DNA of 58,523 nucleotides. Source: Candidatus Woesearchaeota archaeon (GTDB taxonomy: Archaea > Nanobdellota > Nanobdellia > Woesearchaeales > JACPBV01). The notes beneath the pieces are model-generated. The model searched no databases, was not told the origin of the DNA, and saw only the letters and a program-made list of their open reading frames with translations. Location: contig JAHWIN010000031.1 of assembly GCA_019322475.1 (NCBI GenBank), positions 1-58,523 of the forward strand, in the 5' to 3' direction. Within the stretch, counting starts at the first letter, position 1; every line of letters begins with the position of its first letter. Below, in pieces: positions 2,210 through 55,517 of this stretch. Both the position numbers and the translations under genes were made by a program.

Positions 2210-2210
2210 G

Positions 2211-6806: not shown

Positions 6807-6810
6807 AATA

Positions 6811-6854
6811 AGCAAGTGACCTATAATATTGTATAAAAATTTGTGTCACTTGCT
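6811..6854. repeat. Perfect 10-bp inverted repeat (AGCAAGTGAC / GTCACTTGCT) with a 24-nt AT-rich loop
   Basis: Read directly from the sequence. It starts 5 nt after the previous inverted repeat. Confidence 0.8.
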
Positions 6855-7003
6855 ATAACTTTTTTAACGAACCTCTTTGCAAACGGAAAGCCATCTCATT
6901 TTTGCTGCTTCTTTTTTCCAGGGTGATCTTTTAGCTGCTTATTCACTACTCAACCGGTTTAATAAACTTTAAATAAGGGCTTGTTTCCGTCTTTTCTGAT
7001 CTT

Positions 7004-8482: not shown

Positions 8483-9595
8483 TCAGCAGTGCTCGTCATA
8501 TGTGAATGTCTTTCCGCAGTAATTCTTAAGAACTATCTTCCTGTCATCCCTTTCTACTATGTAGTTTGGAAGTATCGGTATCTTCCCCCCTCCGCCAGGA
8601 CTGTCTATGACAAAATGGGGGACTGCAAGGCCTGATGTCCACCCCTGTATGGAGCTTATTATACTGAGCCCTGCTTCAACCTTTGTCCTGAAATGGTTTA
8701 TGCCTTTTGTCATGTCTGCCTGATAGATATAGTATGGGCGGACCCTTATCGAAAGCAGCTTCTGCATCAGGTCTTTCATGACCTTGGGGTCATCGTTGAC
8801 GCCTTTCAGCAGGACTGTCTGGCTGCTTAGAAGTATCCCTGAGTCTGCCAGCATATTGCAGGCACTTGAGCTCATGTCAGTTATCTCATCAGGGTGCGCG
8901 AAATGGACATTTATGTATAGGGGATGGTATTTCTTCAGCATGCTGCATAATTCAGGGGTTACCCTGTGGGGAAGGGCGCATGGGACCCTTGTCCCTATCC
9001 TTATTATCTCAACATGCTTGATGCTCCTAAGCTGCTTAAGGATCCACTCAAGATAGGAGTCAGAGAGCAGGAAAGGGTCGCCTCCTGAAAGCAGGACATC
9101 CCTTATCTCAGGATGGGCTTTTATGTATTCTATGCCCCTCTGTATCTGGCTTCTTGTTATCCTCTTGAACGGGTCGCCGACTTTTCTTTTTCTTGTGCAG
9201 AACCTGCAGTACATCGAGCATTGGTTGCATACAAGGAACAATACCCTGTCAGGATACCTGTGGGTAAGGCCGGGAACAGGAGAGTCCCTCTCTTCACAGA
9301 GGGGGTCTTCAAAGCCTTCCGGATCATCCAGCTCATTTACATCAGGTATGCACTGCTTCCAGACGGCATCGTCCTTCTTTTTTATAAGGCTAAGGTAATA
9401 GGGGTTTATCCTCATTGGATATTTTTTTATGACTTCCTTCAGCTTTTCCTTGTCTATGTTGCCCCTGCAGATCGTGTCAAGCTGCTCTTCGTCGACTATG
9501 CTTTTCTTCAGCAGCTCTTCCCACAGCTCAACCTGCTCTATCTCTTTTACGAACCTCTTCTTCAACAATGTTTTTTCCTGCTGGTCCTGCATCAT
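8483..9595 (-). CDS. KamA-family radical SAM / PLP aminomutase (lysine 2,3-aminomutase-like)
   Basis: Motifs: CNQCSMYCRFCTRKR (CxxxCxxC), THRYPDRVLFLV, LSGGDP, IRIGTR. The 370-aa length fits the family. The substrate (Lys, Glu or Arg) cannot be assigned by eye. Confidence 0.85.
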   Translation of the reverse strand: MMQDQQEKTLLKKRFVKEIEQVELWEELLKKSIVDEEQLDTICRGNIDKEKLKEVIKKYPMRINPYYLSLIKKKDDAVWKQCIPDVNELDDPEGFEDPLCEERDSPVPGLTHRYPDRVLFLVCNQCSMYCRFCTRKRKVGDPFKRITRSQIQRGIEYIKAHPEIRDVLLSGGDPFLLSDSYLEWILKQLRSIKHVEIIRIGTRVPCALPHRVTPELCSMLKKYHPLYINVHFAHPDEITDMSSSACNMLADSGILLSSQTVLLKGVNDDPKVMKDLMQKLLSIRVRPYYIYQADMTKGINHFRTKVEAGLSIISSIQGWTSGLAVPHFVIDSPGGGGKIPILPNYIVERDDRKIVLKNYCGKTFTYDEHC

Positions 9596-9766
9596 AACCC
9601 TCTTTTTTACCTTTTTTGAACCTAATCTTCTATAGGCATACTATCATTATGTAAACACCAAAGAAAAACAATGTTTTTTCGAAACATATCTTATTTCACC
9701 AGTTTTTTACCAAAAAAATCTGAATTTTTATGAAATTTTATCCAGATTACTGATATTTAAAGGTTA

Positions 9767-9868
9767 TTATTTTTTTATTTTCTCGTCGGTAAAATAAGAA
9801 CAATCTCCAAAAAAATCTTTTTTATTTTTTCAGCAAAAATTATTTTTTTATTTTCTCGTCGGTAAAAT
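9767..9868. repeat. Two identical 29-bp direct repeats (TTATTTTTTTATTTTCTCGTCGGTAAAAT) at 9767-9795 and 9840-9868
   Basis: Read directly from the sequence. They lie in the 435-bp AT-rich gap between the decarboxylase and the KamA-like gene and are separated by 44 bp. Confidence 0.85.
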
Positions 9869-10030
9869 CAGCATTATGTTTTGAAAATTTTTTCTGAGAA
9901 TAATCTTTGCAGGCTATTTTTGTATTTTTTAGGCATGGCTTTTTTATGAGGTGTTGAAGATTTTCAATGGAGCTTATGCATGATCAAAATTTTCATCTAA
10001 GGCAAACAGGAAAGATAAAACTGGCCCCTC

Positions 10031-11401
10031 TTAAAACAAACATCCAGAATACCTGTCTTCGAACTTCTCTTTTTCCTTGGCTAAGACCAGCTTGTTGTTT
10101 GAGATTGCAACATATGGGGCGTTTTCCTTTATCAGCCTCCAGGCCCTTGAGAATGTGTAGCTTCCCTGCATCATGACGATAAGTATGTCTCCTTTGCAGC
10201 ACCCTTTGCCGAAGTAAGAATAGCCCCACAGGTCATCGGCCTTGCACAGGCTTCCGTAGATTATCTTTCTTGAAAGCTCAGGAGAGGGTCTTGAAAGGTT
10301 GACTATGGGGGAGAAAAGATGCTTTGAGAAGTCCAGCCCGCCTATGAGGTTCATGCCGCCATCGGCGATGACATTGCTTCCTTTTTCTGCAATCACCTTA
10401 AGCAGTATGTGCGTAGAGTTGTTTGATATATATCTTCCAGGCTCAAGATATAACCTGATATCTTTGTTGAAAGGGAATATATATTTTTTTAGGCTTTCTG
10501 ATATCTCCTTTCCGAACTTTTCAAGCGGATCTACGTCGTCTATAAAGAACCTTTGCCAGTCAAAGCCTATCTTTTTGCCTTCAGTCTCATGGACCACCTC
10601 TTCTAGGACATACCTGTGGGTAAATTTTGCCAGGGTTGCCTGGCTTTCAGGACATATGCCTCCCCCTATGTCAAGGAACTCTAATCCATTAAGATTTTCT
10701 TTCAGGAACTCCCCTATGGCCTTTATGCTCCTGCAGTACCTTTCCGGGCTGTCATTCCATGATGAGTGGAAATGCAGGCCTTTCAGGCATATGCTTTTGC
10801 TTTCTTTGGCTTTTTTTATCGCCTCTTTCAACGAGCCCAGAGGTACCCCGAACTTGCTCCAGTTTTTCATTATATCCCTGTCAGGGTTTACCCTTATGCT
10901 TACGCTTATCCTGCTGCTGCCGGCCATGCTTATTATCCTGTCAAGCTCGTCCTCGTTGTCAGCATTTATCATGACCTTTTCGCTGTTTCTTATGGCCAAC
11001 GCCAGCTCTTCATCACTTTTTCCAGGCCCGGTAAATATTATCTTTTCAAAACCAAGCTTCAGGGCAAGCTTTAGCTCAAAAAGGCCAGCGACGTCTGCGT
11101 TGTACCCTAATGACGTTACTTTTTTTGCCAGGTAAGGGAGGTCATTAGACTTAAGAGCGTAGAAAAATTCAGAGTTTGGGATGTGCTTCCTGAACGTCTT
11201 TATGAAGGAAAGGGCTTTTTCCTTCAATACATCTTCTTCAAGTATATACTGGGGGGTTCCAAACTCCTTTGCTGACCTCAGGAACAGCTCTTTTTTGCCT
11301 ATAGCTTTTTCTATAAGGCCCCTATAATAGCTTCCATCATCTGTCTCTATATCGTCTTCCCATGCTTTTCTTATTATGTCCTTTGATTCGTCCCATATCA
11401 T
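10031..11401 (-). CDS. Fold-III PLP-dependent decarboxylase (Orn/Lys/Arg/DAP decarboxylase family)
   Basis: Motifs: FYALKSN (PLP lysine context), GLHFHSS, LDIGGGI, LEPGRYI, GSLCKADD. The start overlaps the upstream gene's stop (ATGA). Confidence 0.8.
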   Translation of the reverse strand: MIWDESKDIIRKAWEDDIETDDGSYYRGLIEKAIGKKELFLRSAKEFGTPQYILEEDVLKEKALSFIKTFRKHIPNSEFFYALKSNDLPYLAKKVTSLGYNADVAGLFELKLALKLGFEKIIFTGPGKSDEELALAIRNSEKVMINADNEDELDRIISMAGSSRISVSIRVNPDRDIMKNWSKFGVPLGSLKEAIKKAKESKSICLKGLHFHSSWNDSPERYCRSIKAIGEFLKENLNGLEFLDIGGGICPESQATLAKFTHRYVLEEVVHETEGKKIGFDWQRFFIDDVDPLEKFGKEISESLKKYIFPFNKDIRLYLEPGRYISNNSTHILLKVIAEKGSNVIADGGMNLIGGLDFSKHLFSPIVNLSRPSPELSRKIIYGSLCKADDLWGYSYFGKGCCKGDILIVMMQGSYTFSRAWRLIKENAPYVAISNNKLVLAKEKEKFEDRYSGCLF

Positions 11402-12765
11402 CTGCTCAGCTCCTCATCAAATATGGAAGTTACCTTTTCCTTTATATTTCCTCTTATTGAGACGGCGTCATGGGCAGTGAAGAACCTGTCGTAAAGATGG
11501 TCTTCTCTTTCTTTGGCCTCACCTAAAAATAACCTTTTGAACTTATCTATAAGATGGCCTTTACAGCCGAGCTTAAAAGCAAGGTAAAAGGCGAAAAGCT
11601 GTTCGTCCCTTACCGCTTTCGGCTTTTCATATACCCTTTTTGGCTCTTTGTTGAACAAAGGGTAGAGATGCTCATGCTCTTTGCTGAAAAGATCCCTGTT
11701 GAACCGTATAATCGATGGGTCAATACCGTTCGCTTTCAGGTAGAGGAATGATTTTGCACACATAGGGCACTTATAGCACCATCTTTCACCTTCATCCTCT
11801 GATTCAGCCAGGGAGCAGGACATCTGGTATTTTGCAGCCTGAGGGTATCTTCTGAAAAGCACCTTTACCTCTGCTATGTTATAGAGCGGCTCTATCAGTG
11901 AATTGAGCTGTACTTTTCCTCCTGTAAGATCATCGAGGGCCTTGTTCTGGTCAAGCATGCACTTTGCTGACTGCTCATAGGATGGATAAGCCATGAAGCC
12001 TTCCATGTCTGTGAAATGATCGTTGAAGTTCTGCTCGTTGCCGAATATTATCCTGCTTTTTTTTCCGGCAGATGCAAACGGAAGGAGCATCATCATATAG
12101 CCGCTCATCGCATTGCTGCCGTATATCCCTGATGATCCTGTCCTGTTGATCTTGGGGTTTAAGTGTATGTCATCAAGGCCGTCCCGGACAAAGTGAATAT
12201 TCTCCCTGAACTCTTCCTGAAAAGAGGATATAAGCTTTTTCTTCTGGATAAGCTCTTCCTCGTTCATGTCCTCAAAGAATACGAGGTCCATGGGAATGCC
12301 GATCTCTTTTGCTAGGGCATAGGATAGAAGGCTGTCCTTTCCAAGGGAGAAAGACAAGACTGCACCCTCATCGGGGCAGCTTTCAAAAGAGCCTTTCTCA
12401 TCTGCGAGGCTTCCGGAACAGCCTCTACTGAAACTGAATTCAGCTTTCTGGAACCTTTTTTTAAGAGAAGAAGCTGAAACACTGTCTTCAAAAGCCATAC
12501 GGGGAAGATCAAGTTCAGCGCACCTGTCAAAAAAAGCCCTCAATAAGGGATGTGCTGTGCTGAAACTGAACTTTTCTTTGAGCAATGAGGCATATGAGGC
12601 TACCTTTAGGTAAGCTATATTATCGGCAAGTATGCTTTTTGACCTTTCACTTAAAATATCCCAGATGCCATCAGGATAATTTAAGAGATAGTCTTTTCCT
12701 ATATTGCAGCTAAGACCGTTTTCTTTAACCTTAGTCACTATTTCCATCTTTTCCTTCAGCAGCAT
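11398..12765 (-). CDS. Adenine-nucleotide alpha-hydrolase (PP-loop-like) superfamily protein with a C-terminal Cys cluster; function unknown
   Basis: AVLSFSLGKDSLLSYAL resembles the SGGxDS/SxGKDS PP-loop. A later segment reads SC...RWCYKCPMCAKS. I recognise no closer family. Confidence 0.4.
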   Translation of the reverse strand: MLLKEKMEIVTKVKENGLSCNIGKDYLLNYPDGIWDILSERSKSILADNIAYLKVASYASLLKEKFSFSTAHPLLRAFFDRCAELDLPRMAFEDSVSASSLKKRFQKAEFSFSRGCSGSLADEKGSFESCPDEGAVLSFSLGKDSLLSYALAKEIGIPMDLVFFEDMNEEELIQKKKLISSFQEEFRENIHFVRDGLDDIHLNPKINRTGSSGIYGSNAMSGYMMMLLPFASAGKKSRIIFGNEQNFNDHFTDMEGFMAYPSYEQSAKCMLDQNKALDDLTGGKVQLNSLIEPLYNIAEVKVLFRRYPQAAKYQMSCSLAESEDEGERWCYKCPMCAKSFLYLKANGIDPSIIRFNRDLFSKEHEHLYPLFNKEPKRVYEKPKAVRDEQLFAFYLAFKLGCKGHLIDKFKRLFLGEAKEREDHLYDRFFTAHDAVSIRGNIKEKVTSIFDEELSR

Positions 12766-13723
12766 GCCTTTCCATTGAATATGCCAGGATCTTTTCCATC
12801 AGCCCATCAAAGCTTATCCCTGCTTTTGCAGCTGCAAAAGGAAAGGCAGACCTGTCCGAAAGCCCGGCTATCCCGTTGATCTCTATGACATAAGGCTTTC
12901 CATCCTTATCACACCTGAAATCTATCCTTGCCCAGTCCTTACATCCAACAGCGTGATATGCTTTTTTAGCCATCTCCTTTATCTTTTCTTCCATCTCCCC
13001 GGGGAGGGGAGGGCAATCAAAATAGTTGGCTGACCGCTTGGACTTGTCCCAGATCATCCTGCTGCTGTTTTCTCTTGACCTTATCTCAACTATAGGAAGT
13101 ATCTCTAGTGATGAGTTGCCTAATATGCATACTGTGAATTCCCTTCCTTCGAGAAACTCCTCTATCATGGCAGGCTGGCCGTATTTTTCTACTATCTCTT
13201 TGGCCTTTTCCATGGCTTTTTCTTTGGAGATTACAATATTATCTTCAGATATGCCTATGCTTGAGCCTTCATAAGCAGGCTTTATTATCCATGGAAGCAT
13301 CAGGCTGATATTAGAGAACATATCTTCGCCAGGGCTTTTTATGCAGTGAAACCCCGGAGTGGCTATGTTATGATAGCTTAATATCTTCTTTGTCATTATC
13401 TTGTTGAATGTTATCCCTATGGCCAATGCACAGCTTCCTGTAAACGGGATCTTGAGCATCTCCAGGACAGCAGGAAAATAAAGCTCCCTGTTAGCGCCTT
13501 CGACGCCTTCGCTGAAATTAAAGACAAAATCATACCTCTTTTTTCTTAAGCTGTCCAGCGCTTCGGGAGACGCTTCGATAACATCAACATCGTGCTTTTT
13601 TCCGAATGCGTCCCTTATCCTGCTTATTGTCTTATGGGAGTCCATGTCATCGAACTTGTCCTTAGGCGATCTTTCGTCCAGCTCGTACTTTTCATAACAA
13701 TTGCATAAGACTGCCAGTTTCAT
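12731..13723 (-). CDS. D-Ala-D-Ala ligase-family ATP-grasp ligase, paralog 1
   Basis: Motifs: PWIIKPAYEGSSIGIS, QPAMIEEFLEGREFTVCILG, ARIDFRCDKDGKPYVIEINGIAGL. I prefer the ATG at 13723 (MKLAVL), preceded by AGGTG, over the track's GTG at 13732. Confidence 0.8.
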   Translation of the reverse strand: MKLAVLCNCYEKYELDERSPKDKFDDMDSHKTISRIRDAFGKKHDVDVIEASPEALDSLRKKRYDFVFNFSEGVEGANRELYFPAVLEMLKIPFTGSCALAIGITFNKIMTKKILSYHNIATPGFHCIKSPGEDMFSNISLMLPWIIKPAYEGSSIGISEDNIVISKEKAMEKAKEIVEKYGQPAMIEEFLEGREFTVCILGNSSLEILPIVEIRSRENSSRMIWDKSKRSANYFDCPPLPGEMEEKIKEMAKKAYHAVGCKDWARIDFRCDKDGKPYVIEINGIAGLSDRSAFPFAAAKAGISFDGLMEKILAYSMERHAAEGKDGNSD

Positions 13724-13743
13724 ATTTAGCACACCTGTCTGAT

Positions 13744-14763
13744 CTAAATGGCCTGTTTCATTTTAATACCTTTTTCACAGATATCCTGCCTTTTTAACGA
13801 TTCCCTGAATATCTTATAGATTATATCCTCGTATCCGAATCCGGCTGCCTTGGCTGACCTGATGAACCCTGCCCCTTTAGGGTTGATGCAGGGCTTTGTG
13901 TTCACTTCCAGCACATATGGGTCATTACCCTTAAGCCTGAAATCAACCCTTGCATAATCCCTGCAGCCCATGGCAAGAAACGCCTTTTTTGCTGCAGCAC
14001 AAATCTTTTCTTCCTCCGCTTTATCGAGCTCAGCAGGGCACTTCCCTACCGACCTTTTGTAAAGATCATCATCCTCCACCCATTTTGCCTCATAGGTGAG
14101 GATAGCAGGGATTCCAGGAGGGTAATCAAATACTATCTCAGAGAGAGGAAGAACCTCGATGCTTTTTCCGTTGCCTATGACTGCTGCGTTTATCTCCCTT
14201 CCTTCTATGTACTCTTCAGCCAATGCAGGCTGCTTATATACCCTTATTATCTCTTCTGCTTTTTTCCTTAATCCTGCTTCGCTTTTTACAACTGAATTTA
14301 GGCCTATGCCGAGGCTTCCATCGGTATAGCACGGCTTTAATATAATCGGGAAATCAAGGGTCATATCTTCGTTTCCGTCCTTAAACTGCTGAAAGTTCGG
14401 AGTTAAGATGCCTTCTTTGGAAAGGGCATTCTTTGCCTTTGTTTTTTCAAGGCAGCACCTAAGGGTATCTTCTCCTGATCCTGTATAGGGCATGCCTATC
14501 TTGTCAAGCTTTGCAGCTACTTCGCTTTCTGTTATTATGTCCCCTTTTACATCCTCTGCAAGGTTGAATATAAAATCAAACCTTTCAGCTAAGGTTTTAA
14601 ACGCATCAGGGCTGGCTTTTATCAGCGAGGCCTGATGGCCTTTTTTTTCAAGCGCTTTCTTGACACATAAGGAGGTTTCAAATATCTCATTATGGGCTAT
14701 CTCATCTATCTCTTTTCCTGTCCCTTCGCTTTCTGCCAGGTTATAAAGGATGCCTATTCTCAT
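13744..14763 (-). CDS. D-Ala-D-Ala ligase-family ATP-grasp ligase, paralog 2
   Basis: Motifs: FPIILKPCYTDGSLGI, QPALAEEYIEGREINAAVIG, TYEAKW, ARVDFRLKGNDPYVLEVNTKP. Confidence 0.8.
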   Translation of the reverse strand: MRIGILYNLAESEGTGKEIDEIAHNEIFETSLCVKKALEKKGHQASLIKASPDAFKTLAERFDFIFNLAEDVKGDIITESEVAAKLDKIGMPYTGSGEDTLRCCLEKTKAKNALSKEGILTPNFQQFKDGNEDMTLDFPIILKPCYTDGSLGIGLNSVVKSEAGLRKKAEEIIRVYKQPALAEEYIEGREINAAVIGNGKSIEVLPLSEIVFDYPPGIPAILTYEAKWVEDDDLYKRSVGKCPAELDKAEEEKICAAAKKAFLAMGCRDYARVDFRLKGNDPYVLEVNTKPCINPKGAGFIRSAKAAGFGYEDIIYKIFRESLKRQDICEKGIKMKQAI

Positions 14764-14771
14764 TTTTTCTT

Positions 14772-15791: not shown

Positions 15792-15964
15792 GTCTTTTAA
15801 CCCTCCTTAAATGACAATTGCTGCTTTCGCCATAAAATTAAGATATCCCTAAAAAAAATAATCCTGGAGTATTATATAAATTTATTTGTTCTCCAGTATC
15901 ATTTAAGAGATTGGGCTGATGCTTCTGGCTGGATATTTTTCTGAACCAAAGAAATCTTCCGTGC

Positions 15965-17056
15965 CTATCTTTTTATGCCCCACCTTTCCATAGCGCTTCT
16001 TATGACTTCCTTTATGAGCTTTTCATAGCTCCATCCTGCTGCGTAAGCTGCTTTCGGCAGCCTTGAGTTTTTCTTCGGATCTTTCATAAAGCCGGGAAGG
16101 GCGTTAGCCTCAAGGACGTTTGGGATGTTATCCCTGTCAAGCCTTATGTCAACCCTTGCCCAGTCCCTGCAGTTTAGGGCCCTGAACGATTTTAATGCAA
16201 CGTCTTTGATGCTTGTTTCCAGCTCTTTGCTTATGTTAGCAGGGCAGACAATGGGATTGAACCCGCTTTTTTCTATGAATTCGGGGCTGTCATATACCCA
16301 CTTTGCCTCATAACTGTCCATAGGATGTATGTTTTTGGGGAGGTGGTCAAACCTTATCTCTACGATAGGGAGAATTGCCGGTGAATTGCAGCCTATGATC
16401 GATACGGTGAATTCCCTTCCTTCCAGGAACTCTTCTACCAATGCTGGCTGGCTGTAATCTGTTATAGTCTTTTTTACTATCCTTTTCAGCTCTTCTTTAT
16501 CATTTACAAGATTTTCGTTGAATAATCCCTTGGAAGAGCCTTCAAGCAGGGGCTTTACTATCAAGGGGAAGGCAAGATCATCTTGAATTGTCTCATCTGC
16601 ATCTTCAAAAACCTGGAACCTTGGAGTAGGTATGCTGTTCTTTTTGAGGATGTCTTTTGTCTTTGACTTGTTCAATGTTATCATGAGATCTTTGGATGCT
16701 GCAGCAGTGAATGGGATGCCTATGTCTTCACATATCTTAGGGACCAGTGATTCCCGGTCTTCCCCGCTCATGCCTTCGGCGACATTAAAGATGAGGCTGA
16801 TATCTTCTTTCTTTCTTTTTAATTCTTCCCGCAGGGCTTCTTCAGAGAACCTGTTCGTATCTATTATTATCGTTTCATAGCCGCTGGAGGCTATGGCTTC
16901 CTTAAGGTCATCGATAGTCTCTTCTGAGTCAAACTCTGCGTATCTTTCCTCTTCCTCTTCAGAAAGATCTTTGGGCTTTATGCTGCATGTTATGGCTATC
17001 TTTAGACCGTTGTTTTTATCTTCAGACTTATCCCTGCATCCGCAAGAAGGTTCCAT
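15965..17056 (-). CDS. D-Ala-D-Ala ligase-family ATP-grasp ligase, paralog 4 (with an N-terminal Cys/acidic extension)
   Basis: Motifs: FPLIVKPLLEGSSKGL, QPALVEEFLEGREFTVSIIG, SYEAKW, ARVDIRLDRDNIPNVLEANALPG. A 173-bp gap containing a TATA-like element separates it from paralog 3. Confidence 0.8.
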   Translation of the reverse strand: MEPSCGCRDKSEDKNNGLKIAITCSIKPKDLSEEEEERYAEFDSEETIDDLKEAIASSGYETIIIDTNRFSEEALREELKRKKEDISLIFNVAEGMSGEDRESLVPKICEDIGIPFTAAASKDLMITLNKSKTKDILKKNSIPTPRFQVFEDADETIQDDLAFPLIVKPLLEGSSKGLFNENLVNDKEELKRIVKKTITDYSQPALVEEFLEGREFTVSIIGCNSPAILPIVEIRFDHLPKNIHPMDSYEAKWVYDSPEFIEKSGFNPIVCPANISKELETSIKDVALKSFRALNCRDWARVDIRLDRDNIPNVLEANALPGFMKDPKKNSRLPKAAYAAGWSYEKLIKEVIRSAMERWGIKR

Positions 17057-17139
17057 AAAAATCCATTAAGAGAAACTTTAGGGTAGTATTTAAAATTTTG
17101 GGGTGTGAGTTTTTGATGGGAGGGTTTTTTGAAGGAAGA

Positions 17140-17147
17140 TTTATATA
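17140..17147 (+). promoter_or_regulatory. TATA-box-like element (TTTATATA) upstream of the GATase-like gene
   Basis: It ends 24 nt before the ATG at 17172, in the divergent 115-bp intergenic region. A TTTTAAATA element on the other strand lies about 30 nt upstream of the ATG at 17056. Confidence 0.4.
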
Positions 17148-17171
17148 GCCCACCAGACCCCTGGCTTTGCC

Positions 17172-17882
17172 ATGGCAAATCATTCCCCCATTAAGGCAAA
17201 AGATAAAGGTTATCCTATAAAAACTATCACAAAAGCCGATATGCCTATCCTTATAATAGACCATGGAAGCAAACTGGTCAACCAGTTTGAGCATATACTT
17301 GAGACCCAGGGATATAACTGTTCTGAGGTAAAGAATTACAAGGATCTTGGAGACATCAGCGGAAAGGATTATGCGGCTGTTTTTCTTTATGGCGGCAATG
17401 GGAAGATAAGGGGCAACTCTGATCTGAATAATGAGTTAGCCATCTTAAGATACTGCATCAATAATAAGGTACCTACCATGGGAATAAACCATGGGGCCCA
17501 GATTATATGTTATTATTCTGGAAAAGGATGTAATTCCGGAGGGCTTATTTCCAGGCTTGAAAATCCAAGGCAGGGCGTTTTTGGTGATTATGTGACCAAA
17601 GGCAAGGATTCTATACTGAAAGATGTTGAAGGTATAATTACAATGGAATGGCACAAGTGGGCTATAGACCATATAGGAGAGGATTATAATGTTTTGATCA
17701 CAGACGGTCTAAGAAAAATCCAGCTCGCTGTACATAAAGAAGCGCCAGTGTATGCTTCTCAGTTCCATCCTGAGATGAAAAGATCAGAAGGCAGCCTGAG
17801 AACAAATGGAGAGATAATATTTAACAATTTTTTGAATATTGCTTATAATGCTTACCAGAACGCACAAAGGCCTCTTTTGTAG
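17172..17882 (+). CDS. Class-I glutamine amidotransferase-like protein (GuaA-A-like) with the nucleophile Cys replaced by Asn
   Basis: ILIIDHGSKLVNQFEHILETQGY and ASQFHPE match the GMP-synthase GATase subunit pattern. The GIC.G.Q motif reads GINHGAQ (DNA gga ata aac cat). Confidence 0.6.
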   Translation: MANHSPIKAKDKGYPIKTITKADMPILIIDHGSKLVNQFEHILETQGYNCSEVKNYKDLGDISGKDYAAVFLYGGNGKIRGNSDLNNELAILRYCINNKVPTMGINHGAQIICYYSGKGCNSGGLISRLENPRQGVFGDYVTKGKDSILKDVEGIITMEWHKWAIDHIGEDYNVLITDGLRKIQLAVHKEAPVYASQFHPEMKRSEGSLRTNGEIIFNNFLNIAYNAYQNAQRPLL

Positions 17883-18713
17883 GATATGGAAGATGCGGCT
17901 TAATCTTTTTCCTTTGGCTTTTTTCTTGTATTTTCTTCTTACTTTTCCTTTGACTATATCGCTGATAATCTCTTCAGGAGCATAACCTGTTGTTCCTTGA
18001 GCATGGGGGCTTTTAACCTTTCCCTCTAAGGAACCAGTTTCAGCAGGCAGCGCCTTCCGCCCGGTTGCTTTTTGCAAGAATCTTACGATAGTTTCTTCGT
18101 CCTCTATTCTTTTTCTTCTTTCAGGATGATATTGCGTTCCTGAGAGATTTCCTTTTTCAAACTCCATTATATAATGGGTGCCCTGGTGCTTTTCTTTGGA
18201 TTTCACTGCTTCACGGATACGCCCGCTTAGTTTTCTTTGGTGTTTTGCAGGGATCAGATATTTGTGGTAAAGTCCCTTCTCTTTGTTGATGTTGAACTTT
18301 CCTGAGTTTACAGAATATGCTTCTAATGTTTGTGCGATGGCTTTGGCACCTTCGCATATGCCATGAACCTTTGCCCTTTTTTCTTTTATCAGGTAATCAT
18401 AGACACTGTTGGCCCTTTTCATCACCGGGTGTTTGTATTCTACCCCTTTATGCTTGGCAACATGGAATTCTTTCTCTTTTTCATACCAGTGCCCTGTTCC
18501 TCCTCCAGCTATGTAGCCATTAGCCTTATAGTTATTAAGATGCTTATTGTCTTTAAGGTACCTGCTCATCTCACCATGGTTTACTAATTTAACGTCAATC
18601 TTTTCTTTGAACCTTCTTCCTGCTATCTTATTGACATAATTATAGAGAAGTTTGGCTTTGCTACTATCTTTGTCCCTGTAATTGTTGATTATGTTTATCC
18701 TATAGCCAGCCAT
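17784..18713 (-). CDS. Divergent class-I glutamine amidotransferase-like protein with a basic C-terminal tail
   Basis: VHGICEGAKAIAQ (Cys retained) and GTQYHPE, about 90 aa apart. A Lys/Arg-rich tail follows. The 3' end overlaps the convergent gene by 99 nt. Confidence 0.45.
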   Translation of the reverse strand: MAGYRINIINNYRDKDSSKAKLLYNYVNKIAGRRFKEKIDVKLVNHGEMSRYLKDNKHLNNYKANGYIAGGGTGHWYEKEKEFHVAKHKGVEYKHPVMKRANSVYDYLIKEKRAKVHGICEGAKAIAQTLEAYSVNSGKFNINKEKGLYHKYLIPAKHQRKLSGRIREAVKSKEKHQGTHYIMEFEKGNLSGTQYHPERRKRIEDEETIVRFLQKATGRKALPAETGSLEGKVKSPHAQGTTGYAPEEIISDIVKGKVRRKYKKKAKGKRLSRIFHILQKRPLCVLVSIISNIQKIVKYYLSICSQAAF

Positions 18714-18909
18714 GATCTTTTTGAAGAGCCTGAATTATATAAATATTGCTGTAAACCGCCACGATATACCCCAATCAGGCAGAACCCACCAAAACATTTT
18801 TAAAGTAGCTTCTATTTTGATAGTTAGATAACAAGAAATCTCACTTTTTATTCATCGTTATTAATCCAAGTGGGCTTATTTTATTCCATTGAACTTATGG
18901 AAGTGCAGA

Positions 18910-19860
18910 ATGAAGATAGGGATAGTAAAGGAACATGGACTGGCTGACAAGAGGGCGATACTTCTTCCGGAAGAGGTCAGAAAGCTTGTAAGGGCCGGGA
19001 ATAAGGTTTTTGCAGAGAAAGGACTAGGCGAAGGGGTGTATTTTGAGGATTCAGAGTACAGGAAAGCCGGAGCAACGATAGTCAGCGAGCCCAAGGAGGC
19101 CTTTTCCCAGGAGCTTGTGGTGAAGCTGAGATGCCCTTCTGACAATGAGTTCCTCATGATGAAGAACAATATCCTTTTCAGCATGCTCCATTTGGAGCAG
19201 AACCTTCACAGGATCAGGATAGTCAAGAAGCAGAACATAAAGGCCATAGCCATGGAGCGCGTCTTGAATGAATATGGGGACAGGCTTGTTGACTGCACAG
19301 AGCTTACAGGGGAGCAGGCCATATTATACGCATTCAACCTGGCGATGAAATCCCCTTCAGAATGCAGGATACTTGTTCTTGGGTATGGAAGGGTCGCTAG
19401 CGGAGCGATAAACATAGCCAACAAGCTTGGGGCAAAGATAAAGATACTAAGAAAAAGCGAATATAAGCACATAAAGCACCGCCTGAAGGGCAAGGATATG
19501 CTGATAAACGGGATAACCTGGCCGAAGTACCATAGAGACAAGAAGGATTATGTTGTTACCAGGAAGATGCTGAAGCTGCTTAACAGGGGGGCTGTCGTCG
19601 TCGATATATCTGTAGATTATCCTAATCCTATAGAAACATGCAGGCCTACTTACCCTAATGACCCATGGTATGAGATAGACGGCGTAAAGCATGTAGGGAT
19701 ATACGGGTATCCGGCACTTGCTCCTATATCAAGCGCTGAGCGGTACTCAAGGCAGCTTCTTCCCCTCATCCTGGACATATCAAAAAACAGGATAAAGGAG
19801 ATGTCAAAGCCGCTTCAGAAGGCGCTGGTAAGGCCAAGAGATTACTTAAGAAAAGAATGA
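18910..19860 (+). CDS. Short alanine-dehydrogenase/PNT-family NAD(P) oxidoreductase, resembling N5-(carboxyethyl)ornithine synthase
   Basis: Motifs: MKIGIVKEHGLADKRAILLPEEVRKLV..G..V..E.GLGEG, LFSMLHLEQN, Rossmann ILVLGYGRVASGAINIANKLGAKIKIL, VVDISVDYPNPIETC. At 316 aa it is shorter than a true AlaDH. I prefer the ATG at 18910 over the track's TTG at 18889. Confidence 0.6.
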   Translation: MKIGIVKEHGLADKRAILLPEEVRKLVRAGNKVFAEKGLGEGVYFEDSEYRKAGATIVSEPKEAFSQELVVKLRCPSDNEFLMMKNNILFSMLHLEQNLHRIRIVKKQNIKAIAMERVLNEYGDRLVDCTELTGEQAILYAFNLAMKSPSECRILVLGYGRVASGAINIANKLGAKIKILRKSEYKHIKHRLKGKDMLINGITWPKYHRDKKDYVVTRKMLKLLNRGAVVVDISVDYPNPIETCRPTYPNDPWYEIDGVKHVGIYGYPALAPISSAERYSRQLLPLILDISKNRIKEMSKPLQKALVRPRDYLRKE

Positions 19861-21368
19861 AAACAATCCTTGTCATAGGCGACGACTCAGACTGGGAGTC
19901 ATTCCTTAAGTTTAAGAAGAAGAGGGAATTCTTCAGGAAAAATAAGATATCTTTTAAGGCGATAGGATACAGCCCTGTCCTGAAAGGGAAGCTTCCTGAA
20001 ATAAAAAACAAGGACATACTTATCTTTCTTTTTTTCCCTCTGGATTACTGGAACAACAGGATAGAGGGGAATTTTGTAAAAGGGAGAGTCTATGGAGACA
20101 GGAAATGCGCCCTCATGTTCTATGATTATCTTGATAAGGTAAAGGGCATGATCGATGATAGATACAGGGGCAAAAGGCTGAGCTATGTCAACTCTTTCGG
20201 GTCAGTCAAGGTTGACAGGGATAAGGAGCTGACAAAGAAGGTCATCGGAAAGGCTGTTCCTGTTCCTCTAGGTTATCCTGTAAGGAGGTATGAGGATATA
20301 GAAAAGCTGCTCTCCCTGGGGAAGAGGCTTTACATAAAGGTTAATTTCGGAGCAATGGGGAAAGGGATAACAAGGCTTGAGAAAGGAAAATGGGTTACAA
20401 ATTTCCTGTATAGGAAAGGGAATATAGTAAGCAGGAAGGGGGATTACGGATGGAAATTCAATGACATTACAGGCAGGAAAAATTTTCTTAAAAAACTGCT
20501 CAAGAAGGATGTTGTTGTCGAGGAGGCTATCGACCCTTATGTCATAAGGGGGAAGAAATTTGACATAAGGTATTATGTGGTATACGGAAAGATAAAACAC
20601 AGGATGATAAGAAGCACATCTGAAGGCAATGTCGTCACTAACATAACCCAGGGGGGAAGCAAGGAGGGAAAAGCCTTCATGAGGAAAATACCTAAAACAT
20701 TCCTTAAGAGGGCTGAAAAAAGCGCTGTTGAAGCTGCAAGAGCACTAAGGCTCAACCTTGCGGGGATCGATGTCATGATCTCAAGAAAAGGAATACCTTA
20801 TGTTATAGAAGCGCAGTCATTCCCGGGATTCCCTGCATCCAGGCATAACTTTTCAGAAAAGCTTGCAAAGGATATAATCAGGAACTGGAGATGCATAGAG
20901 ATAAGGAAGGCAGAGAAAAGAGACCTTAAGGATATCCTAAGGCTTAAGCTGAAGCTGAAGAAACAGGATCTTGAGATAGACAGATACCTTAAGGACCCTC
21001 ATGAGACCAAGGAGCTTTACAAAAGGTATCTTATAAGGGACCTAAGCAGGCAGGGCCAGGACAGGATCCTTTTTGTTGCTGTAATGAACAATAAGGTTGT
21101 AGGGTATGTGAGAGGGACCCTTACAAGGACCCTGCATGTCCTTAATGTAAGGCTGAGGGGAACTATAGACAACCTTTATGTAGAGAAAAGATACAGGGGG
21201 AAAGGCTTTGCAGGACAGCTTGTAAATGAGCTTATAGGATGGTTCAGGGAAAAGGGCGTTGATGTAATGACGCTTCATGTCTATCCTTCAAACTCAAAGG
21301 CCATATCATTATACAGGAGCTTCGGCTTTGAGGAATACACCTTAAACATGAGCAGAAAGACGGGTTAG
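19857..21368 (+). CDS. RimK-type ATP-grasp ligase fused to a C-terminal GNAT N-acetyltransferase
   Basis: ATP-grasp part: LYIKVNFGAMGKGI, DIRYYVVYGKI, NITQGGS, AGIDVMISRKGIPYVIEAQSFPGF. GNAT part: VVGYVRG...VEKRYRGKGFAGQLVNELIGWFREKG...LYRSFGFEE. The start overlaps the upstream stop (ATGA). Confidence 0.7.
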   Translation: MKTILVIGDDSDWESFLKFKKKREFFRKNKISFKAIGYSPVLKGKLPEIKNKDILIFLFFPLDYWNNRIEGNFVKGRVYGDRKCALMFYDYLDKVKGMIDDRYRGKRLSYVNSFGSVKVDRDKELTKKVIGKAVPVPLGYPVRRYEDIEKLLSLGKRLYIKVNFGAMGKGITRLEKGKWVTNFLYRKGNIVSRKGDYGWKFNDITGRKNFLKKLLKKDVVVEEAIDPYVIRGKKFDIRYYVVYGKIKHRMIRSTSEGNVVTNITQGGSKEGKAFMRKIPKTFLKRAEKSAVEAARALRLNLAGIDVMISRKGIPYVIEAQSFPGFPASRHNFSEKLAKDIIRNWRCIEIRKAEKRDLKDILRLKLKLKKQDLEIDRYLKDPHETKELYKRYLIRDLSRQGQDRILFVAVMNNKVVGYVRGTLTRTLHVLNVRLRGTIDNLYVEKRYRGKGFAGQLVNELIGWFREKGVDVMTLHVYPSNSKAISLYRSFGFEEYTLNMSRKTG

Positions 21369-55494: not shown

Positions 55495-55517
55495 ACACCA
55501 GCCGAATATCTCTTTTT

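What the first reader, a model, noticed from the sequence alone, without database searches (positions are those of the whole stretch)
8483..21368. Orphan amino-acid/peptide biosynthetic island with five ATP-grasp ligases plus an aminomutase, decarboxylase, PP-loop enzyme, GATase-like pair, opine-type dehydrogenase and GNAT
Across about 13 kb, nearly every gene is an amino-acid-activating or -modifying enzyme, and I cannot map the set to a named pathway.

Minus strand, tightly packed with overlaps or gaps under 12 nt from 15791 to 10031:
- four diverged Ddl-family ATP-grasp ligases
- a PP-loop-like protein (SLGKDS)
- a fold-III PLP decarboxylase
- after an AT-rich 435-bp gap, a KamA-type radical-SAM 2,3-aminomutase

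Divergent from these:
- a GuaA-like amidotransferase homolog without its Cys
- a second GATase-like protein
- a short AlaDH-family enzyme resembling N5-(carboxyethyl)ornithine synthase
- a RimK-type ATP-grasp fused to a GNAT

The established chemistry of these families is beta-amino acid formation from Lys/Glu/Arg, decarboxylation of Orn/Lys/Arg/DAP, reductive opine formation on Orn/Lys side chains, ATP-dependent amide ligation, and N-acetylation. All of this converges on basic or diamino acids.

Inference: the island carries out ribosome- and NRPS-independent assembly of a short peptide, pseudopeptide or polyamine conjugate containing a beta- or diamino acid. Candidate products include a compatible solute, a metallophore or an envelope component. 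No murein or Mur-ligase genes are visible, so a peptidoglycan role for the Ddl homologs is unlikely.
Basis: partly seen in the sequence, partly recalled or inferred. Interest (0 to 1): 0.8.

Follow-up and report, generated by a model that had tools for sequence, protein, structure and literature searches.

The report
Conserved archaeal beta-lysine peptide-ligase gene island
A tiny symbiotic-type (DPANN) archaeon carries a conserved 13-kb set of genes that most likely builds a small beta-lysine-containing peptide without ribosomes or NRPS enzymes, using five ATP-grasp ligases and an undescribed QueC-like enzyme; the product is unknown.

Summary
Window 8483-21368 encodes a lysine-type 2,3-aminomutase, a fold-III PLP decarboxylase, a 449-455-aa PP-loop protein, four diverged but catalytically intact Ddl-family ATP-grasp ligases, two GATase-like proteins, a short AlaDH-family enzyme and a YheCD/RimK ATP-grasp fused to GNAT.

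It is not a chance juxtaposition. The same gene set is syntenic in three other Woesearchaeota/Nanoarchaeia genomes at about 50% protein identity.

New findings:
- The "PP-loop-like" protein founds an uncharacterised QueC-superfamily clade. Its fold is closest to QatC and QueC, and it keeps an SxGKDS loop and a Cys4 zinc motif. A Ddl-like ligase lies within 6 kb in 51 of 78 loci across DPANN, CPR bacteria, Bathyarchaeia and Thorarchaeota.
- KamA is fused to a Ddl4-type ligase in four genomes, so beta-lysine is probably that ligase's substrate.
- The island is two separable modules.
- The Cys-less GATase is a conserved pseudo-enzyme.

No characterised pathway matches. The best reading is an NRPS-independent beta-lysine (pseudo)peptide pathway with an unknown product. 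I rate it a new variant of a known kind, of moderately high interest.

The parts
8483..9595 (-). KamA/AblA-type radical-SAM lysine 2,3-aminomutase (370 aa), the predicted source of beta-lysine
   Evidence: Radical_SAM + LAM_C. TIGR03820 AblA scores 492 bits (cut-off 525); the KamA subfamily TIGR00238 scores 300 bits (cut-off 199). E = 6e-118 to 2A5H, with CxxxCxxC, the GGGGK PLP-lysine and the equivalents of Asp293 and Asp330 conserved.
9596..10030 (-). AT-rich control region upstream of KamA: two copies of an operator-like motif (9766-9794 and 9839-9867), a BRE/TATA-like AATAACCTTTAAATA, and an SD-preceded 21-codon uORF (9622-9687)
   Evidence: GC 21-30%. Exact 29-nt repeat, 73 nt apart, 0 expected by chance. 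Motif, TATA and uORF are conserved in homologous gaps of L082, L002, L003 and L005. No Rfam hit and no consensus fold.
10031..11401 (-). Fold-III PLP-dependent decarboxylase (456 aa), LysA/FslC/BtrK-like but not an equivalog of any of them
   Evidence: Orn_Arg_deC_N, 101 bits. LysA scores 147 bits against a 298 cut-off; FslC scores 99 bits. Nearest structures are DAP decarboxylase 2P3E, N-citrylornithine decarboxylase 7KH2 and BtrK; the ALKSN PLP-lysine is present. 4-nt overlap with the PP-loop gene.
11398..12765 (-). QueC-superfamily PP-loop ATP-pyrophosphatase of an undescribed clade (455-aa ORF; probable start 12747, 449 aa), a predicted adenylating amidoligase or amidotransferase
   Evidence: No Pfam, NCBIfam or PADLOC hit. 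Conserved SxGKDS, FGNE and C317...C330-x2-C333-x2-C336. AF2 model pLDDT 92.9. Foldseek top hits are QatC 9Y02_B (E = 6e-5, full length), QueC 3BL5 and Cap9 9NTO. 188 clusters at E<=1e-30.
12731..13732 (-). Ddl-family ATP-grasp ligase, paralogue 1 (333 aa)
   Evidence: Dala_Dala_lig_C, 133 bits. Best NCBIfam Ddl model scores 195 bits against a 243 cut-off. E = 3e-33 to Ddl 4ZQI with the R-x-D...E-x-N motif kept.
13744..14763 (-). Ddl-family ATP-grasp ligase, paralogue 2 (339 aa)
   Evidence: Dala_Dala_lig_C, 99 bits. Catalytic set kept; the EGSS motif is replaced by TDGS. 34-39% identical to the other paralogues.
14772..15791 (-). Ddl-family ATP-grasp ligase, paralogue 3 (339 aa); orthologous to one of the two ligases kept in relatives
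   Evidence: Dala_Dala_lig_C, 100 bits. Catalytic set kept, with Glu to Asp at the second Mg ligand. Best match of the second ligase in L002, L003, L004 and L019.
15965..17056 (-). Ddl-family ATP-grasp ligase, paralogue 4 (363 aa); the type fused to KamA elsewhere, so the predicted beta-lysine ligase
   Evidence: Dala_Dala_lig_C, 124 bits. Structure-sequence hits to Ddl. The ATP-grasp half of KamA fusions in L006, L010, L040 and L076 is 42-47% identical to it, against 33-38% for paralogues 1-3. It is the usual neighbour of the PP-loop gene in Bathyarchaeia.
17172..17882 (+). Class-I GATase-fold protein lacking the nucleophile (Cys to Asn): a conserved pseudo-amidotransferase
   Evidence: GATase, 68 bits. 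GMP synthase subunit A scores 57 bits against a 198 cut-off. GINHGAQ versus GICVGAQ. The L090 orthologue (45% identity) also has Asn and has additionally lost His-Glu.
17784..18713 (-). Second GATase/peptidase-C26-like protein (309 aa) with a putative Cys-His-Glu (HGICEGAK ... YHPE); its 3' end overlaps the convergent gene by 99 nt
   Evidence: Pfam GATase scores 19 bits, below the cut-off. Translation. 54% identical orthologue in L082 keeps both motifs and lacks the last ~46 residues. The L090 positional counterpart is only 26% identical and lacks the Cys.
18889..19860 (+). Short AlaDH/PNT-family dehydrogenase (probable start 18910, 316 aa)
   Evidence: AlaDh_PNT_N + AlaDh_PNT_C. alaDH equivalog scores 124 bits against a 392 cut-off. 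Nearest structures are alanine dehydrogenases; equivalents of Arg15, His96 and Asp270 are kept and Lys75 is Arg. Orthologues are 75-83% identical in Woesearchaeota and about 55% in Omnitrophota.
19857..21368 (+). YheCD/RimK-type ATP-grasp fused to a C-terminal GNAT acetyltransferase (503 aa)
   Evidence: ATPgrasp_YheCD 68 bits, Acetyltransf_1 67 bits. No NCBIfam equivalog: MptN 59/350, Ngg 34/569. In L082, L084 and L090 the two domains are separate adjacent genes directly after the AlaDH-like gene.
21365..22357 (-). Na+/Ca2+-exchanger-family membrane protein; possible but unproven accessory (transport)
   Evidence: Na_Ca_ex, 165 bits. Found next to or near the AlaDH/ATP-grasp/GNAT module in L002, L082, L090 and the more distant L089. 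This could be plain synteny.

Best explanation
The island is a ribosome- and NRPS-independent assembly line for a small beta-lysine-containing peptide or pseudopeptide, in a Woesearchaeota-type (DPANN) archaeon. It consists of two modules.

Module B (8483-17056):
- KamA converts L-lysine to beta-lysine.
- The Ddl4-type ATP-grasp ligase joins beta-lysine to a partner through an acyl-phosphate.
- Paralogues 3, 2 and 1 add further residues.
- The QueC-like PP-loop enzyme adenylates a carboxylate of the intermediate and converts it to an amide, with ammonia or an amine.
- The fold-III PLP decarboxylase removes the alpha-carboxylate of a residue that still has a free alpha-amine. This is the ligate-then-decarboxylate logic of N-citrylornithine decarboxylase.

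Module A (17172-21368): the AlaDH-like dehydrogenase, the YheCD/RimK ATP-grasp-GNAT and the GATase-fold proteins supply or tailor a building block by reductive amination or opine formation, a further ligation and N-acetylation.

Shown here: gene content, conservation, intact catalytic motifs, lysine-type residues in KamA, the fusions, and the QueC/QatC-like fold.

Inferred: the order of steps, the substrates other than lysine, the amidation, and the link between modules A and B.

The product is unknown. A polycationic or N-acetylated amide such as an osmolyte, a polyamine surrogate or an exported effector is plausible.
For: Gene families:
- Pfam and NCBIfam place every gene in an amino-acid-activating or -modifying family, none reaching an equivalog cut-off.

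Conservation:
- Gene order KamA-PLPdc-PPloop-Ddl-Ddl-(GATase-like)-AlaDH-ATPgrasp-GNAT is kept in L082 and L090 and rearranged in L002. PP-loop identity to these relatives is only 49-54%.
- Ddl-Ddl-PPloop-PLPdc-KamA is also kept in L003, L004 and L019.

Link between KamA and a ligase:
- KamA::Ddl fusion proteins of about 700 aa occur in L006, L010, L040 and L076. The fused ligase is Ddl4-type.
- KamA has the lysine-specific Asp pair.

Ligases and PP-loop enzyme:
- All four ligases keep their catalytic residues yet are only 31-39% identical to each other, which suggests different substrates.
- The PP-loop protein has the QueC core, a Zn-Cys4 site and QatC-like N- and C-terminal extensions. QueC-family enzymes adenylate a carboxylate and form an amide (PMC13329287, PMC13279940).
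- A Ddl-like gene lies within 6 kb of the PP-loop gene in 51 of 78 loci from several phyla.

Against a protein or peptide substrate:
- No conserved non-enzymatic partner or small ORF accompanies the pair.

Export in some variants:
- CPR variants add an L-amino-acid-ligase fusion, another ATP-grasp, the decarboxylase and an ABC exporter.
Against: - No product or activity is shown.
- Module A occurs without module B in other genomes (L084/L085 and L086-L089). Their adjacency here may reflect shared regulation or mere synteny within one lineage.
- KamA sits behind its own promoter-like region rather than in the tight operon.
- The GATase next to the cluster is a pseudo-enzyme and the second one is not conserved, so the ammonia source for an amidation is unclear.
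- The closest structural relatives of the PP-loop protein, QatC and Cap9, modify protein N-termini, not small molecules.
- Many homologous clusters come from groundwater organisms (record titles). That argues against a classical osmolyte role.
Confidence: 0.55

Rival explanations
1. It is a protein-tagging or protein-modification system. The QueC-like enzyme, like QatC and Cap9, adenylates a carboxylate and couples it to the N-terminus or a side chain of a protein. The ATP-grasp ligases, like RimK or TTL, extend a peptide tail containing beta-lysine on a protein.
For: - The best structural matches of the PP-loop protein are QatC (full length) and Cap9, both protein-modifying enzymes (PMC13279940, PMC13329287).
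- It shares QatC's N- and C-terminal extensions around the QueC core. In QatC the C-terminal helices bind the protein substrate (PMC13279940).
- RimK and TTL Pfam models give weak hits on several of the ligases.
Against: - No conserved candidate target protein or small ORF is found next to the PP-loop/Ddl pair in 80 loci.
- There is no PADLOC hit and no qatA/B/D or CD-NTase neighbour.
- The QueC and QatC signature motifs listed in PMC13329287 are not seen in the family alignment.
- Amino-acid-supplying enzymes (KamA, PALP, decarboxylase, epimerase) and an ABC exporter in variants fit metabolite synthesis better.
Confidence: 0.13
2. The region holds two or three unrelated operons that happen to be neighbours. 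Module B makes one product. The AlaDH-like/ATP-grasp/GNAT module has a separate function, for example alanine or opine metabolism plus an N-acetyl dipeptide. The GATase-like genes relate to the purine genes upstream.
For: - The AlaDH-like + YheCD ATP-grasp pair occurs alone in a Woesearchaeon (L084/L085) and in bacteria (L086-L088).
- Most PP-loop loci lack module A.
- The two modules are divergently transcribed.
- The window also carries PurP x2, the GuaA ATP-PPase subunit and PurF x2 just upstream. The Cys-less GATase is most like GMP synthase subunit A.
Against: - The A-B adjacency, including GATase-like genes between them, is kept in at least four genomes whose proteins have diverged to about 50% identity (window, L082, L090, L002).
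- Bathyarchaeial module B variants carry their own GNAT fused to the Ddl-like ligase. A ligase-GNAT pairing therefore recurs independently.
- The purine genes are not adjacent in L082 or L090.
Confidence: 0.2
3. It is a cell-envelope peptide pathway: synthesis of a murein- or pseudomurein-like stem peptide or another wall polymer by the Ddl homologues.
For: - The ligases belong to the Ddl family.
- They give weak hits to the NCBIfam model for the putative pseudomurein ATP-grasp protein.
- A DapF-like epimerase sits in some variant clusters.
Against: - No Mur-family ligase, MraY-like transferase or glycosyltransferase was found among the window ORFs scanned.
- NF053643 scores 34-57 bits against a cut-off of 500.
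- The Ddl N-terminal D-Ala-binding motif is absent.
- The same cluster type occurs in CPR bacteria, which are known (established knowledge, not tested here) to have ordinary peptidoglycan genes.
Confidence: 0.05

Closest known systems
N-acetylglutaminylglutamine amide (NAGGN) pathway, Ngg + AsnO (established knowledge: Sagot et al. 2010; NCBIfam TIGR03103 and TIGR03104)
   Same: The same three chemistries occur in one locus. An ATP-grasp dipeptide ligase is fused to a GNAT N-acetyltransferase, and an adenylating PP-loop-type enzyme amidates the product. The Bathyarchaeial minimal form (PP-loop + Ddl::GNAT) mirrors this closely.
   Different: - There is no homology at family level: Ngg scores 34 bits against a 569 cut-off, in the GNAT part only.
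- The amidating enzyme here is QueC-like, not asparagine-synthetase-like.
- The ligases are Ddl-type.
- Domain order is reversed.
- Four extra ligases, KamA and a decarboxylase are present.
ablAB, N-epsilon-acetyl-beta-lysine synthesis in methanogens
   Same: An AblA-like lysine 2,3-aminomutase (492 bits against a 525 cut-off, lysine-binding Asp pair kept) lies in a locus that also has a GNAT.
   Different: - No AblB-type GNAT lies next to KamA. The only GNAT is fused to an ATP-grasp about 10 kb away, and no AblB model was hit.
- KamA is instead linked, and elsewhere fused, to Ddl-type ligases.
QueC superfamily: QueC, QatC (QatABCD defence), Cap9 (type IV CBASS)
   Same: PP-loop core, a Cys4 zinc site (C-x12-C-x2-C-x2-C) and a QatC-like layout with N- and C-terminal extensions. 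The shared chemistry is carboxylate adenylation followed by amide formation (PMC13329287).
   Different: - It is not recognised by PF06508 or PADLOC.
- QueC and QatC substrate motifs are absent.
- There are no que, qat or CBASS neighbours; the constant neighbour is an ATP-grasp ligase.
- It is not among the clusters described in PMC13329287.
ATP-grasp L-amino-acid-ligase natural-product pathways (dapdiamide DdaF/G/H, bacilysin BacD, tabtoxin TabS) - recalled knowledge, not tested here
   Same: Short peptides are made by stand-alone ATP-grasp ligases together with an adenylating amidotransferase and PLP enzymes that make the unusual amino acid. CPR variants even contain a LAL_C2-type ligase and an exporter.
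   Different: - No gene-for-gene match.
- A radical-SAM aminomutase fused to the ligase, a QueC-like rather than AsnB-like amidating enzyme, and hosts that are DPANN, CPR or Bathyarchaeia.
Rhizoferrin FslA/FslC (ligate, then decarboxylate)
   Same: The decarboxylase's second-best structural relative is N-citrylornithine decarboxylase 7KH2, and FslC is its second-best NCBIfam hit. An operon-embedded fold-III decarboxylase acting on an already ligated diamino acid would fit the tight coupling seen here.
   Different: There is no NIS synthetase, and the score is far below the FslC cut-off (99 against 500). The substrate is unknown.
Bacterial D-Ala-D-Ala ligase (Ddl)
   Same: The same Pfam family and the same catalytic ATP-grasp residues.
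   Different: - Below every NCBIfam Ddl cut-off.
- The N-terminal GGxSxEhxVS motif is missing.
- Four paralogues are present.
- There is no mur/dcw context.

Membership tests
[quoted passage not shown] | Dala_Dala_lig_C domain above the Pfam gathering score | tested here: met
   All four paralogues score 99-133 bits against a cut-off of 24.
[quoted passage not shown] | Reaches an NCBIfam Ddl subfamily or equivalog cut-off | tested here: not met
   Best scores are 195, 144, 139 and 169 bits against a cut-off of 243 for PRK01372.
[quoted passage not shown] | ATP-grasp catalytic and Mg-binding residues (Lys, Glu, R-x-D, E-x-N) | tested here: met
   Invariant K, E, R269, D271 and N286 in the alignment. 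The second Mg ligand is E, or D in paralogue 3. Alignments to 4ZQI and 3R23 agree.
[quoted passage not shown] | N-terminal GGxSxEhxVS motif with the Glu that binds D-Ala1 (established knowledge of DdlB) | tested here: not met
   The N-termini read (L/F)CNxxE...D..ETI..V..A instead; no GG-S-E-VS motif is present.
[quoted passage not shown] | Genomic association with mur/dcw genes | tested here: not met
   No Mur ligase or MraY among the 39 window ORFs scanned.
Lysine 2,3-aminomutase (KamA/AblA) | Radical-SAM CxxxCxxC and the PLP-binding Lys | tested here: met
   CSMYCRFC and GGGGK align with 2A5H.
Lysine 2,3-aminomutase (KamA/AblA) | Asp293 and Asp330 (2A5H numbering), which bind the lysine epsilon-ammonium and are replaced in glutamate 2,3-aminomutase (established knowledge) | tested here: met
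   YQAD and FVID align with YQCD293 and FVVD330.
Lysine 2,3-aminomutase (KamA/AblA) | NCBIfam AblA equivalog cut-off | tested here: not met
   492.1 bits against 525.4. The KamA-family subfamily model is met (300 against 199).
QueC family (PF06508) | PP-loop SGGxDS-type motif and C...CxxCxxC zinc site | tested here: met
   S140-x-G142-K143-D/E-S145 and C317, C330, C333, C336 are invariant or nearly so in 24 sequences.
QueC family (PF06508) | Recognised by the Pfam QueC model | tested here: not met
   No hit for the window protein. Only 4 of 24 homologues hit, best E = 1.8e-5.
QueC family (PF06508) | QueC-like fold | tested here: met
   Foldseek: QueC 3BL5 with TM 0.77 (target-normalised) and probability 1.00; QatC over the full length.
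QueC family (PF06508) | Canonical substrate motifs YxQxHxxE, VPxRN and YPDC (PMC13329287), and queD/queE neighbours | tested here: not met
   The motifs are not present in the family consensus. No que genes appear in 80 loci.
QatC / Cap9 defence enzymes | PADLOC model hit, and qatA/B/D or CD-NTase neighbours | tested here: not met
   No PADLOC hit at E<=0.1. The neighbours are ATP-grasp ligases.
NAGGN pathway (Ngg/AsnO) | TIGR03103 and TIGR03104 equivalogs | tested here: not met
   Ngg scores 34 bits against 569, on the GNAT part only. The only AsnO-model (TIGR03104) hit among island and flanking proteins was 26 bits on PurF, which lies outside the island.
Pseudomurein ATP-grasp protein (NF053643) | Equivalog cut-off | tested here: not met
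   34-57 bits against 500.
Diaminopimelate / ornithine / lysine decarboxylase (fold III) | Orn_Arg_deC_N domain and the PLP lysine | tested here: met
   101 bits against a 23 cut-off. The ALKSN lysine aligns with 2P3E.
Diaminopimelate / ornithine / lysine decarboxylase (fold III) | A substrate-specific equivalog (LysA, FslC, DokD, NspC) | tested here: not met
   LysA 147/298, FslC 99/500, DokD 64/700, NspC 42/409.
Class-I glutamine amidotransferase | Cys-His-Glu triad | tested here: not met
   In 17172-17882 the Cys is Asn, and also in the L090 orthologue. 17784-18713 has GIC...HPE by inspection but scores below the Pfam cut-off.
N5-(carboxyethyl)ornithine synthase (CEOS) | Sequence similarity to a characterised CEOS | not testable with these tools
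   No CEOS model, structure or annotated record was reachable. The nearest testable relatives are alanine dehydrogenases.

The most novel reading that the evidence does not exclude
The QueC-like PP-loop enzyme plus a Ddl-type ATP-grasp ligase form an ancient, previously unrecognised two-enzyme amide-forming core. It is shared by DPANN archaea, CPR bacteria, Bathyarchaeia and Asgard archaea. The core has been decorated lineage by lineage: KamA fusion, PALP enzyme, LAL fusion, decarboxylase, GNAT, exporter. The result would be a family of unknown ribosome-independent peptides. In Woesearchaeota it has expanded into a five-ligase beta-lysine pathway whose polycationic product serves these minimal-genome symbionts, for example as a polyamine surrogate or a host-interaction molecule.
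Probability: 0.3. Interest if true: 0.8.

Novelty: new variant of a known kind. Interest (0 to 1): 0.62.

Why it matters
DPANN archaea and CPR bacteria are thought to have almost no biosynthetic capacity. A conserved 13-kb island devoted to making one peptide-like compound implies that the product matters for their lifestyle.

The island also defines an uncharacterised clade of the QueC superfamily, with 188 clusters at E<=1e-30 among 1.84 billion representatives. Its constant partner is an ATP-grasp ligase. That extends the recent finding that QueC-fold enzymes are general carboxylate-to-amide ligases.

The KamA::ligase fusion gives a directly testable substrate prediction: beta-lysine for the Ddl4-type enzyme. 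The cluster is small enough to express heterologously.

Tried and rejected
- **Known pathways.** NCBIfam equivalogs for Ddl/Van ligases, AblA, Glu and Arg aminomutases, LysA, FslC, NspC, GuaA, AlaDH, MptN, RimK, Ngg and AsnO are all below cut-off.
- **Defence system.** PADLOC gave no relevant hit.
- **Pseudomurein or murein.** No Mur ligase or MraY was found, and NF053643 scores far below its cut-off.
- **Structured RNA.** A riboswitch or structured leader upstream of KamA is not supported: no Rfam hit at E<=1 and no consensus structure.
- **tRNA or Rfam landmarks in the window.** None.
- **RiPP precursor or carrier protein.** No small ORF is conserved across the 80 loci. The small uORF before KamA is conserved only within the Woesearchaeota/Nanoarchaeia relatives examined, and looks like a leader.
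- **CEOS identity of the AlaDH-like gene.** tblastn against plasmids returned only alanine dehydrogenases and transhydrogenases, so it is not testable.
- **Literature.** Six full-text searches were made: ATP-grasp + aminomutase + DPANN; QueC-like + ATP-grasp; beta-lysine + ATP-grasp + decarboxylase + archaea; DPANN + Ddl; amidoligases + PP-loop; QatC + QueC. None describes this cluster.
- **Sequence-only PDB search with the PP-loop profile.** It gave only a marginal TtuA hit. The fold search was needed.

Full report
**1. What is in the sequence**

On the minus strand lie:
- a KamA-type radical-SAM aminomutase (8483-9595);
- a fold-III PLP decarboxylase (10031-11401);
- a 455-aa ORF without any Pfam or NCBIfam hit but with an SLGKDS loop (11398-12765);
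- four Ddl-family ATP-grasp genes (12731-13732, 13744-14763, 14772-15791, 15965-17056).

Then follow:
- a class-I GATase (17172-17882, +);
- a weak GATase-like ORF (17784-18713, -);
- a short AlaDH/PNT-family gene (18889-19860, +);
- a YheCD/RimK ATP-grasp fused to GNAT (19857-21368, +).

Gaps and overlaps in the block 10031-15791 are 8 nt, 11 nt, -35 nt and -4 nt. The 435-bp gap before KamA has 21-30% GC.

- Only three Ddl genes are in the tight block; the fourth is 173 nt upstream.
- The second GATase-like gene is on the minus strand and overlaps the first convergently by 99 nt.
- Homologues suggest slightly later starts for the PP-loop gene (449 aa) and the AlaDH-like gene (316 aa).

**2. 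Source organism and surroundings**

The window has no tRNA or Rfam feature. Its proteins match MAGs labelled Woesearchaeota, Nanoarchaeota or Nanoarchaeia. The window also encodes an aIF2-gamma-like GTPase, so the source is a DPANN archaeon.

Upstream of the island are two PurP, the GMP-synthase ATP-PPase subunit, PurF and a PurF paralogue. Downstream are a Na/Ca-exchanger-family protein and membrane proteins. No Mur ligase, MraY or glycosyltransferase was found among 39 ORFs scanned.

**3. The individual enzymes**

*KamA.* It aligns with Clostridium lysine 2,3-aminomutase 2A5H at E = 6e-118. It keeps CxxxCxxC, the PLP lysine and the equivalents of Asp293 and Asp330. By established knowledge those two residues bind the lysine epsilon-ammonium and are replaced in glutamate 2,3-aminomutase. 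The predicted product is therefore beta-lysine. The AblA equivalog score is just under cut-off (492 against 525).

*Ddl paralogues.* They are only 31-39% identical to each other. All keep the ATP-grasp catalytic set. All fall below every NCBIfam Ddl cut-off, and they lack the N-terminal D-Ala1-binding motif. They are active ligases, but not D-Ala-D-Ala ligases.

*Decarboxylase.* It has the PLP lysine. Its nearest structures are DAP decarboxylase, N-citrylornithine decarboxylase and BtrK, with no equivalog reached.

*GATase at 17172-17882.* It has Asn in place of the nucleophile Cys. Its orthologue in L090 also has Asn and has lost His-Glu as well. It is a conserved pseudo-enzyme, not a sequencing error.

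*Second GATase-like protein.* It keeps GIC...HPE here and in L082, but its positional counterpart in L090 does not.

*AlaDH-like protein.* It keeps the equivalents of Arg15, His96 and Asp270, with Lys75 replaced by Arg. It is far below the AlaDH cut-off. Its claimed likeness to N5-(carboxyethyl)ornithine synthase could not be tested.

**4. The PP-loop protein is a new QueC-superfamily clade**

An alignment of 24 homologues shows four conserved features:
- S-x-G-K-D/E-S;
- FGNE;
- a Cys cluster, C317...C330-x2-C333-x2-C336;
- a very conserved C-terminal helical region.

Pfam QueC is hit by only 4 of 24 members. A profile search of PDB sequences gives only a marginal TtuA match.

An AlphaFold2 model built with that alignment is confident (pLDDT 92.9). 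Foldseek places it nearest QatC over the full length (E = 6e-5), then QueC, Cap9, YcfA and GMP synthase. Like QatC, it has N- and C-terminal extensions around a QueC core with a Cys4 zinc site (PMC13279940).

QueC-family enzymes adenylate a carboxylate and turn it into an amide, with ammonia or a protein amine (PMC13329287). That survey of the family does not describe this clade. PADLOC does not recognise the protein.

A full HMMER scan of 1.84 billion representatives finds 188 clusters at E<=1e-30 and 485 at E<=1e-10.

**5. Conservation and modularity**

A genome-collection scan found more than 506 loci encoding this protein. They come from DPANN (Woese-, Nano-, Aenigmat-, Iainarchaeota), CPR/Patescibacteria, Omnitrophota, Bathyarchaeia and Thorarchaeota.

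In the 80 loci fetched:
- 51 of 78 have a Ddl-like gene within 6 kb;
- 14 have KamA;
- 9 have the decarboxylase;
- 16 have two PP-loop paralogues.

The closest relatives keep Ddl4-Ddl3-PPloop-PLPdc-KamA (L002, L003, L004, L019). The window has two extra ligases whose types occur in other lineages (L055, L072).

Four loci encode KamA fused to an ATP-grasp ligase. The fused domain is Ddl4-type, at 42-47% identity against 33-38% for the other paralogues. This is a Rosetta-stone argument that beta-lysine is a substrate of Ddl4.

Variants elsewhere:
- Bathyarchaeia have a threonine-synthase-like PALP enzyme, the PP-loop gene and a Ddl::GNAT fusion.
- CPR have the PP-loop gene, a LAL::Ddl fusion, another ATP-grasp, the decarboxylase and an ABC exporter.
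- Some Woesearchaeota add DUF1611 and a DapF-like epimerase.

The whole island, including the GATase-like genes, the AlaDH-like gene, the YheCD ATP-grasp, the GNAT and the Na/Ca-exchanger gene, is syntenic in L082 and L090 and rearranged in L002.

However, the AlaDH-like + YheCD ATP-grasp (+GNAT) unit also occurs alone in a Woesearchaeon and in bacteria. The island is therefore two separable modules that travel together in one lineage.

**6. Small molecule or protein tag?**

De novo clustering of all neighbours, and of small ORFs of 18-100 aa, found no conserved non-enzymatic partner, precursor or carrier next to the PP-loop/Ddl pair.

The presence of amino-acid-supplying enzymes, and of an exporter in variants, favours a metabolite. 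The QatC/Cap9 structural kinship keeps a protein-modification reading alive at low probability.

**7. Proposed mechanism** (inferred except where noted)

- Lysine is converted to beta-lysine by KamA. The residues are shown; the activity is inferred.
- Ddl4 ligates beta-lysine. Paralogues 3, 2 and 1 extend the chain.
- The QueC-like enzyme adenylates a carboxylate and forms an amide.
- The decarboxylase, translationally coupled to the PP-loop gene, trims a residue that keeps a free alpha-amine, as FslC does.
- Module A supplies or tailors a unit and N-acetylates it.

Functionally, the minimal PP-loop + ligase + GNAT set works like the NAGGN pathway, but without homology to it.

**8. Regulation, seen in passing**

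The gap before KamA carries two exact copies of TTTTACCGACGAGAAAATAAAAAAATAAT, 73 nt apart, and the motif is unique in the window.

The same pair, with the 9-nt core inverted inside conserved flanks, lies in the homologous gap of L082. Single related sites occur in L002, L003, L005 and L072.

The proximal copy abuts a conserved TATA-like TTTAAATA. About 45 nt further on, a GGTGA Shine-Dalgarno-like motif precedes a 14-27-codon uORF with a shared K/E-N/K-I-x-F-L-L core. No RNA structure is conserved.

KamA thus appears to be separately and specifically regulated.

**9. Verdict**

No described pathway matches. It is a new variant of the known kind "stand-alone ATP-grasp peptide pathways", built around an undescribed QueC-like enzyme. 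Interest is moderately high, and the product is unknown.

Noticed in passing
window 9596-10030 (minus strand); L082 3694-4097; L002 12724-13078: Conserved control region upstream of KamA. It holds two operator-like pseudo-palindromic sites (TTTnCCGnCGAnAAAA, 73-74 nt apart), a TATA-like TTTAAATA, and an SD-preceded 14-27-codon uORF (window 9622-9687, MFRKNIVFLWCLHNDSMPIED). In L082 the 9-nt core of both sites is inverted within otherwise conserved flanks.
   Followed up: partly
window 54298-58016 (minus strand): An MFS transporter lies next to an 832-aa AMP-binding + PP-binding + acyltransferase protein. By recalled knowledge this resembles the bacterial LplT/Aas lysophospholipid re-acylation pair, which would be unexpected in an archaeon and suggests lipid scavenging.
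   Followed up: no
window 1187-8443: A purine-gene group: two PurP (DUF1246/DUF1297) paralogues, the GMP-synthase ATP-PPase subunit, a bona fide PurF (358 bits, propeptide then Cys), and a second PurF-like gene (7004-8443, 218 bits) whose N-terminus reads MSGIFG, with Ser in place of the nucleophile Cys. It is not adjacent to the island in L082 or L090.
   Followed up: partly
window 17784-17882: The two convergent GATase-like genes overlap by 99 nt. The last ~46 residues of the minus-strand protein have no counterpart in its L082 orthologue, so this tail may be a read-through extension.
   Followed up: partly
window 21365-22357; L002 3200-4222; L082 12443-13465; L090 12585-13571; L089 14051-14948: A Na+/Ca2+-exchanger-family gene recurs next to or near the AlaDH-like/ATP-grasp/GNAT module in five genomes, including a distant one. 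It may be a transporter for the pathway or just synteny.
   Followed up: no
window 25248-25475 (+); L082 16370-16597; L090 16290-16520: A highly conserved 75-aa basic protein made of two ~37-aa repeats (AKVGxKKKxGFLYFxDKKGxxxCAKMARG). It has no annotation and may be a small nucleic-acid-binding protein.
   Followed up: no
L008 9935-18666, L016, L071 (CPR); L025-L059 (Bathyarchaeia); L057 and L064 (Woesearchaeota/Nanoarchaeia); L017 and L020 (Aenigmatarchaeota): Variant clusters occur around the same PP-loop family. In CPR: a LAL::Ddl 808-aa fusion, a 444-aa ATP-grasp, the decarboxylase and an ABC exporter. In Bathyarchaeia: PALP (PRK06381-type) plus Ddl::GNAT. In L057 and L064: duplicated PP-loop, DUF1611 and a DapF-like epimerase. 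In Aenigmatarchaeota: ThiF and DUF763 neighbours.
   Followed up: partly
window 26895-28808, 36926-40567 and 41368-43614: Large ORFs (637, 1213 and 748 aa) with only CARDB, DUF5975 or MopE-type metal-binding motifs, plus cupredoxin-like small proteins at 23056-23613 and 25515-26168. They were not examined further; a surface or secreted role is only a guess.
   Followed up: no
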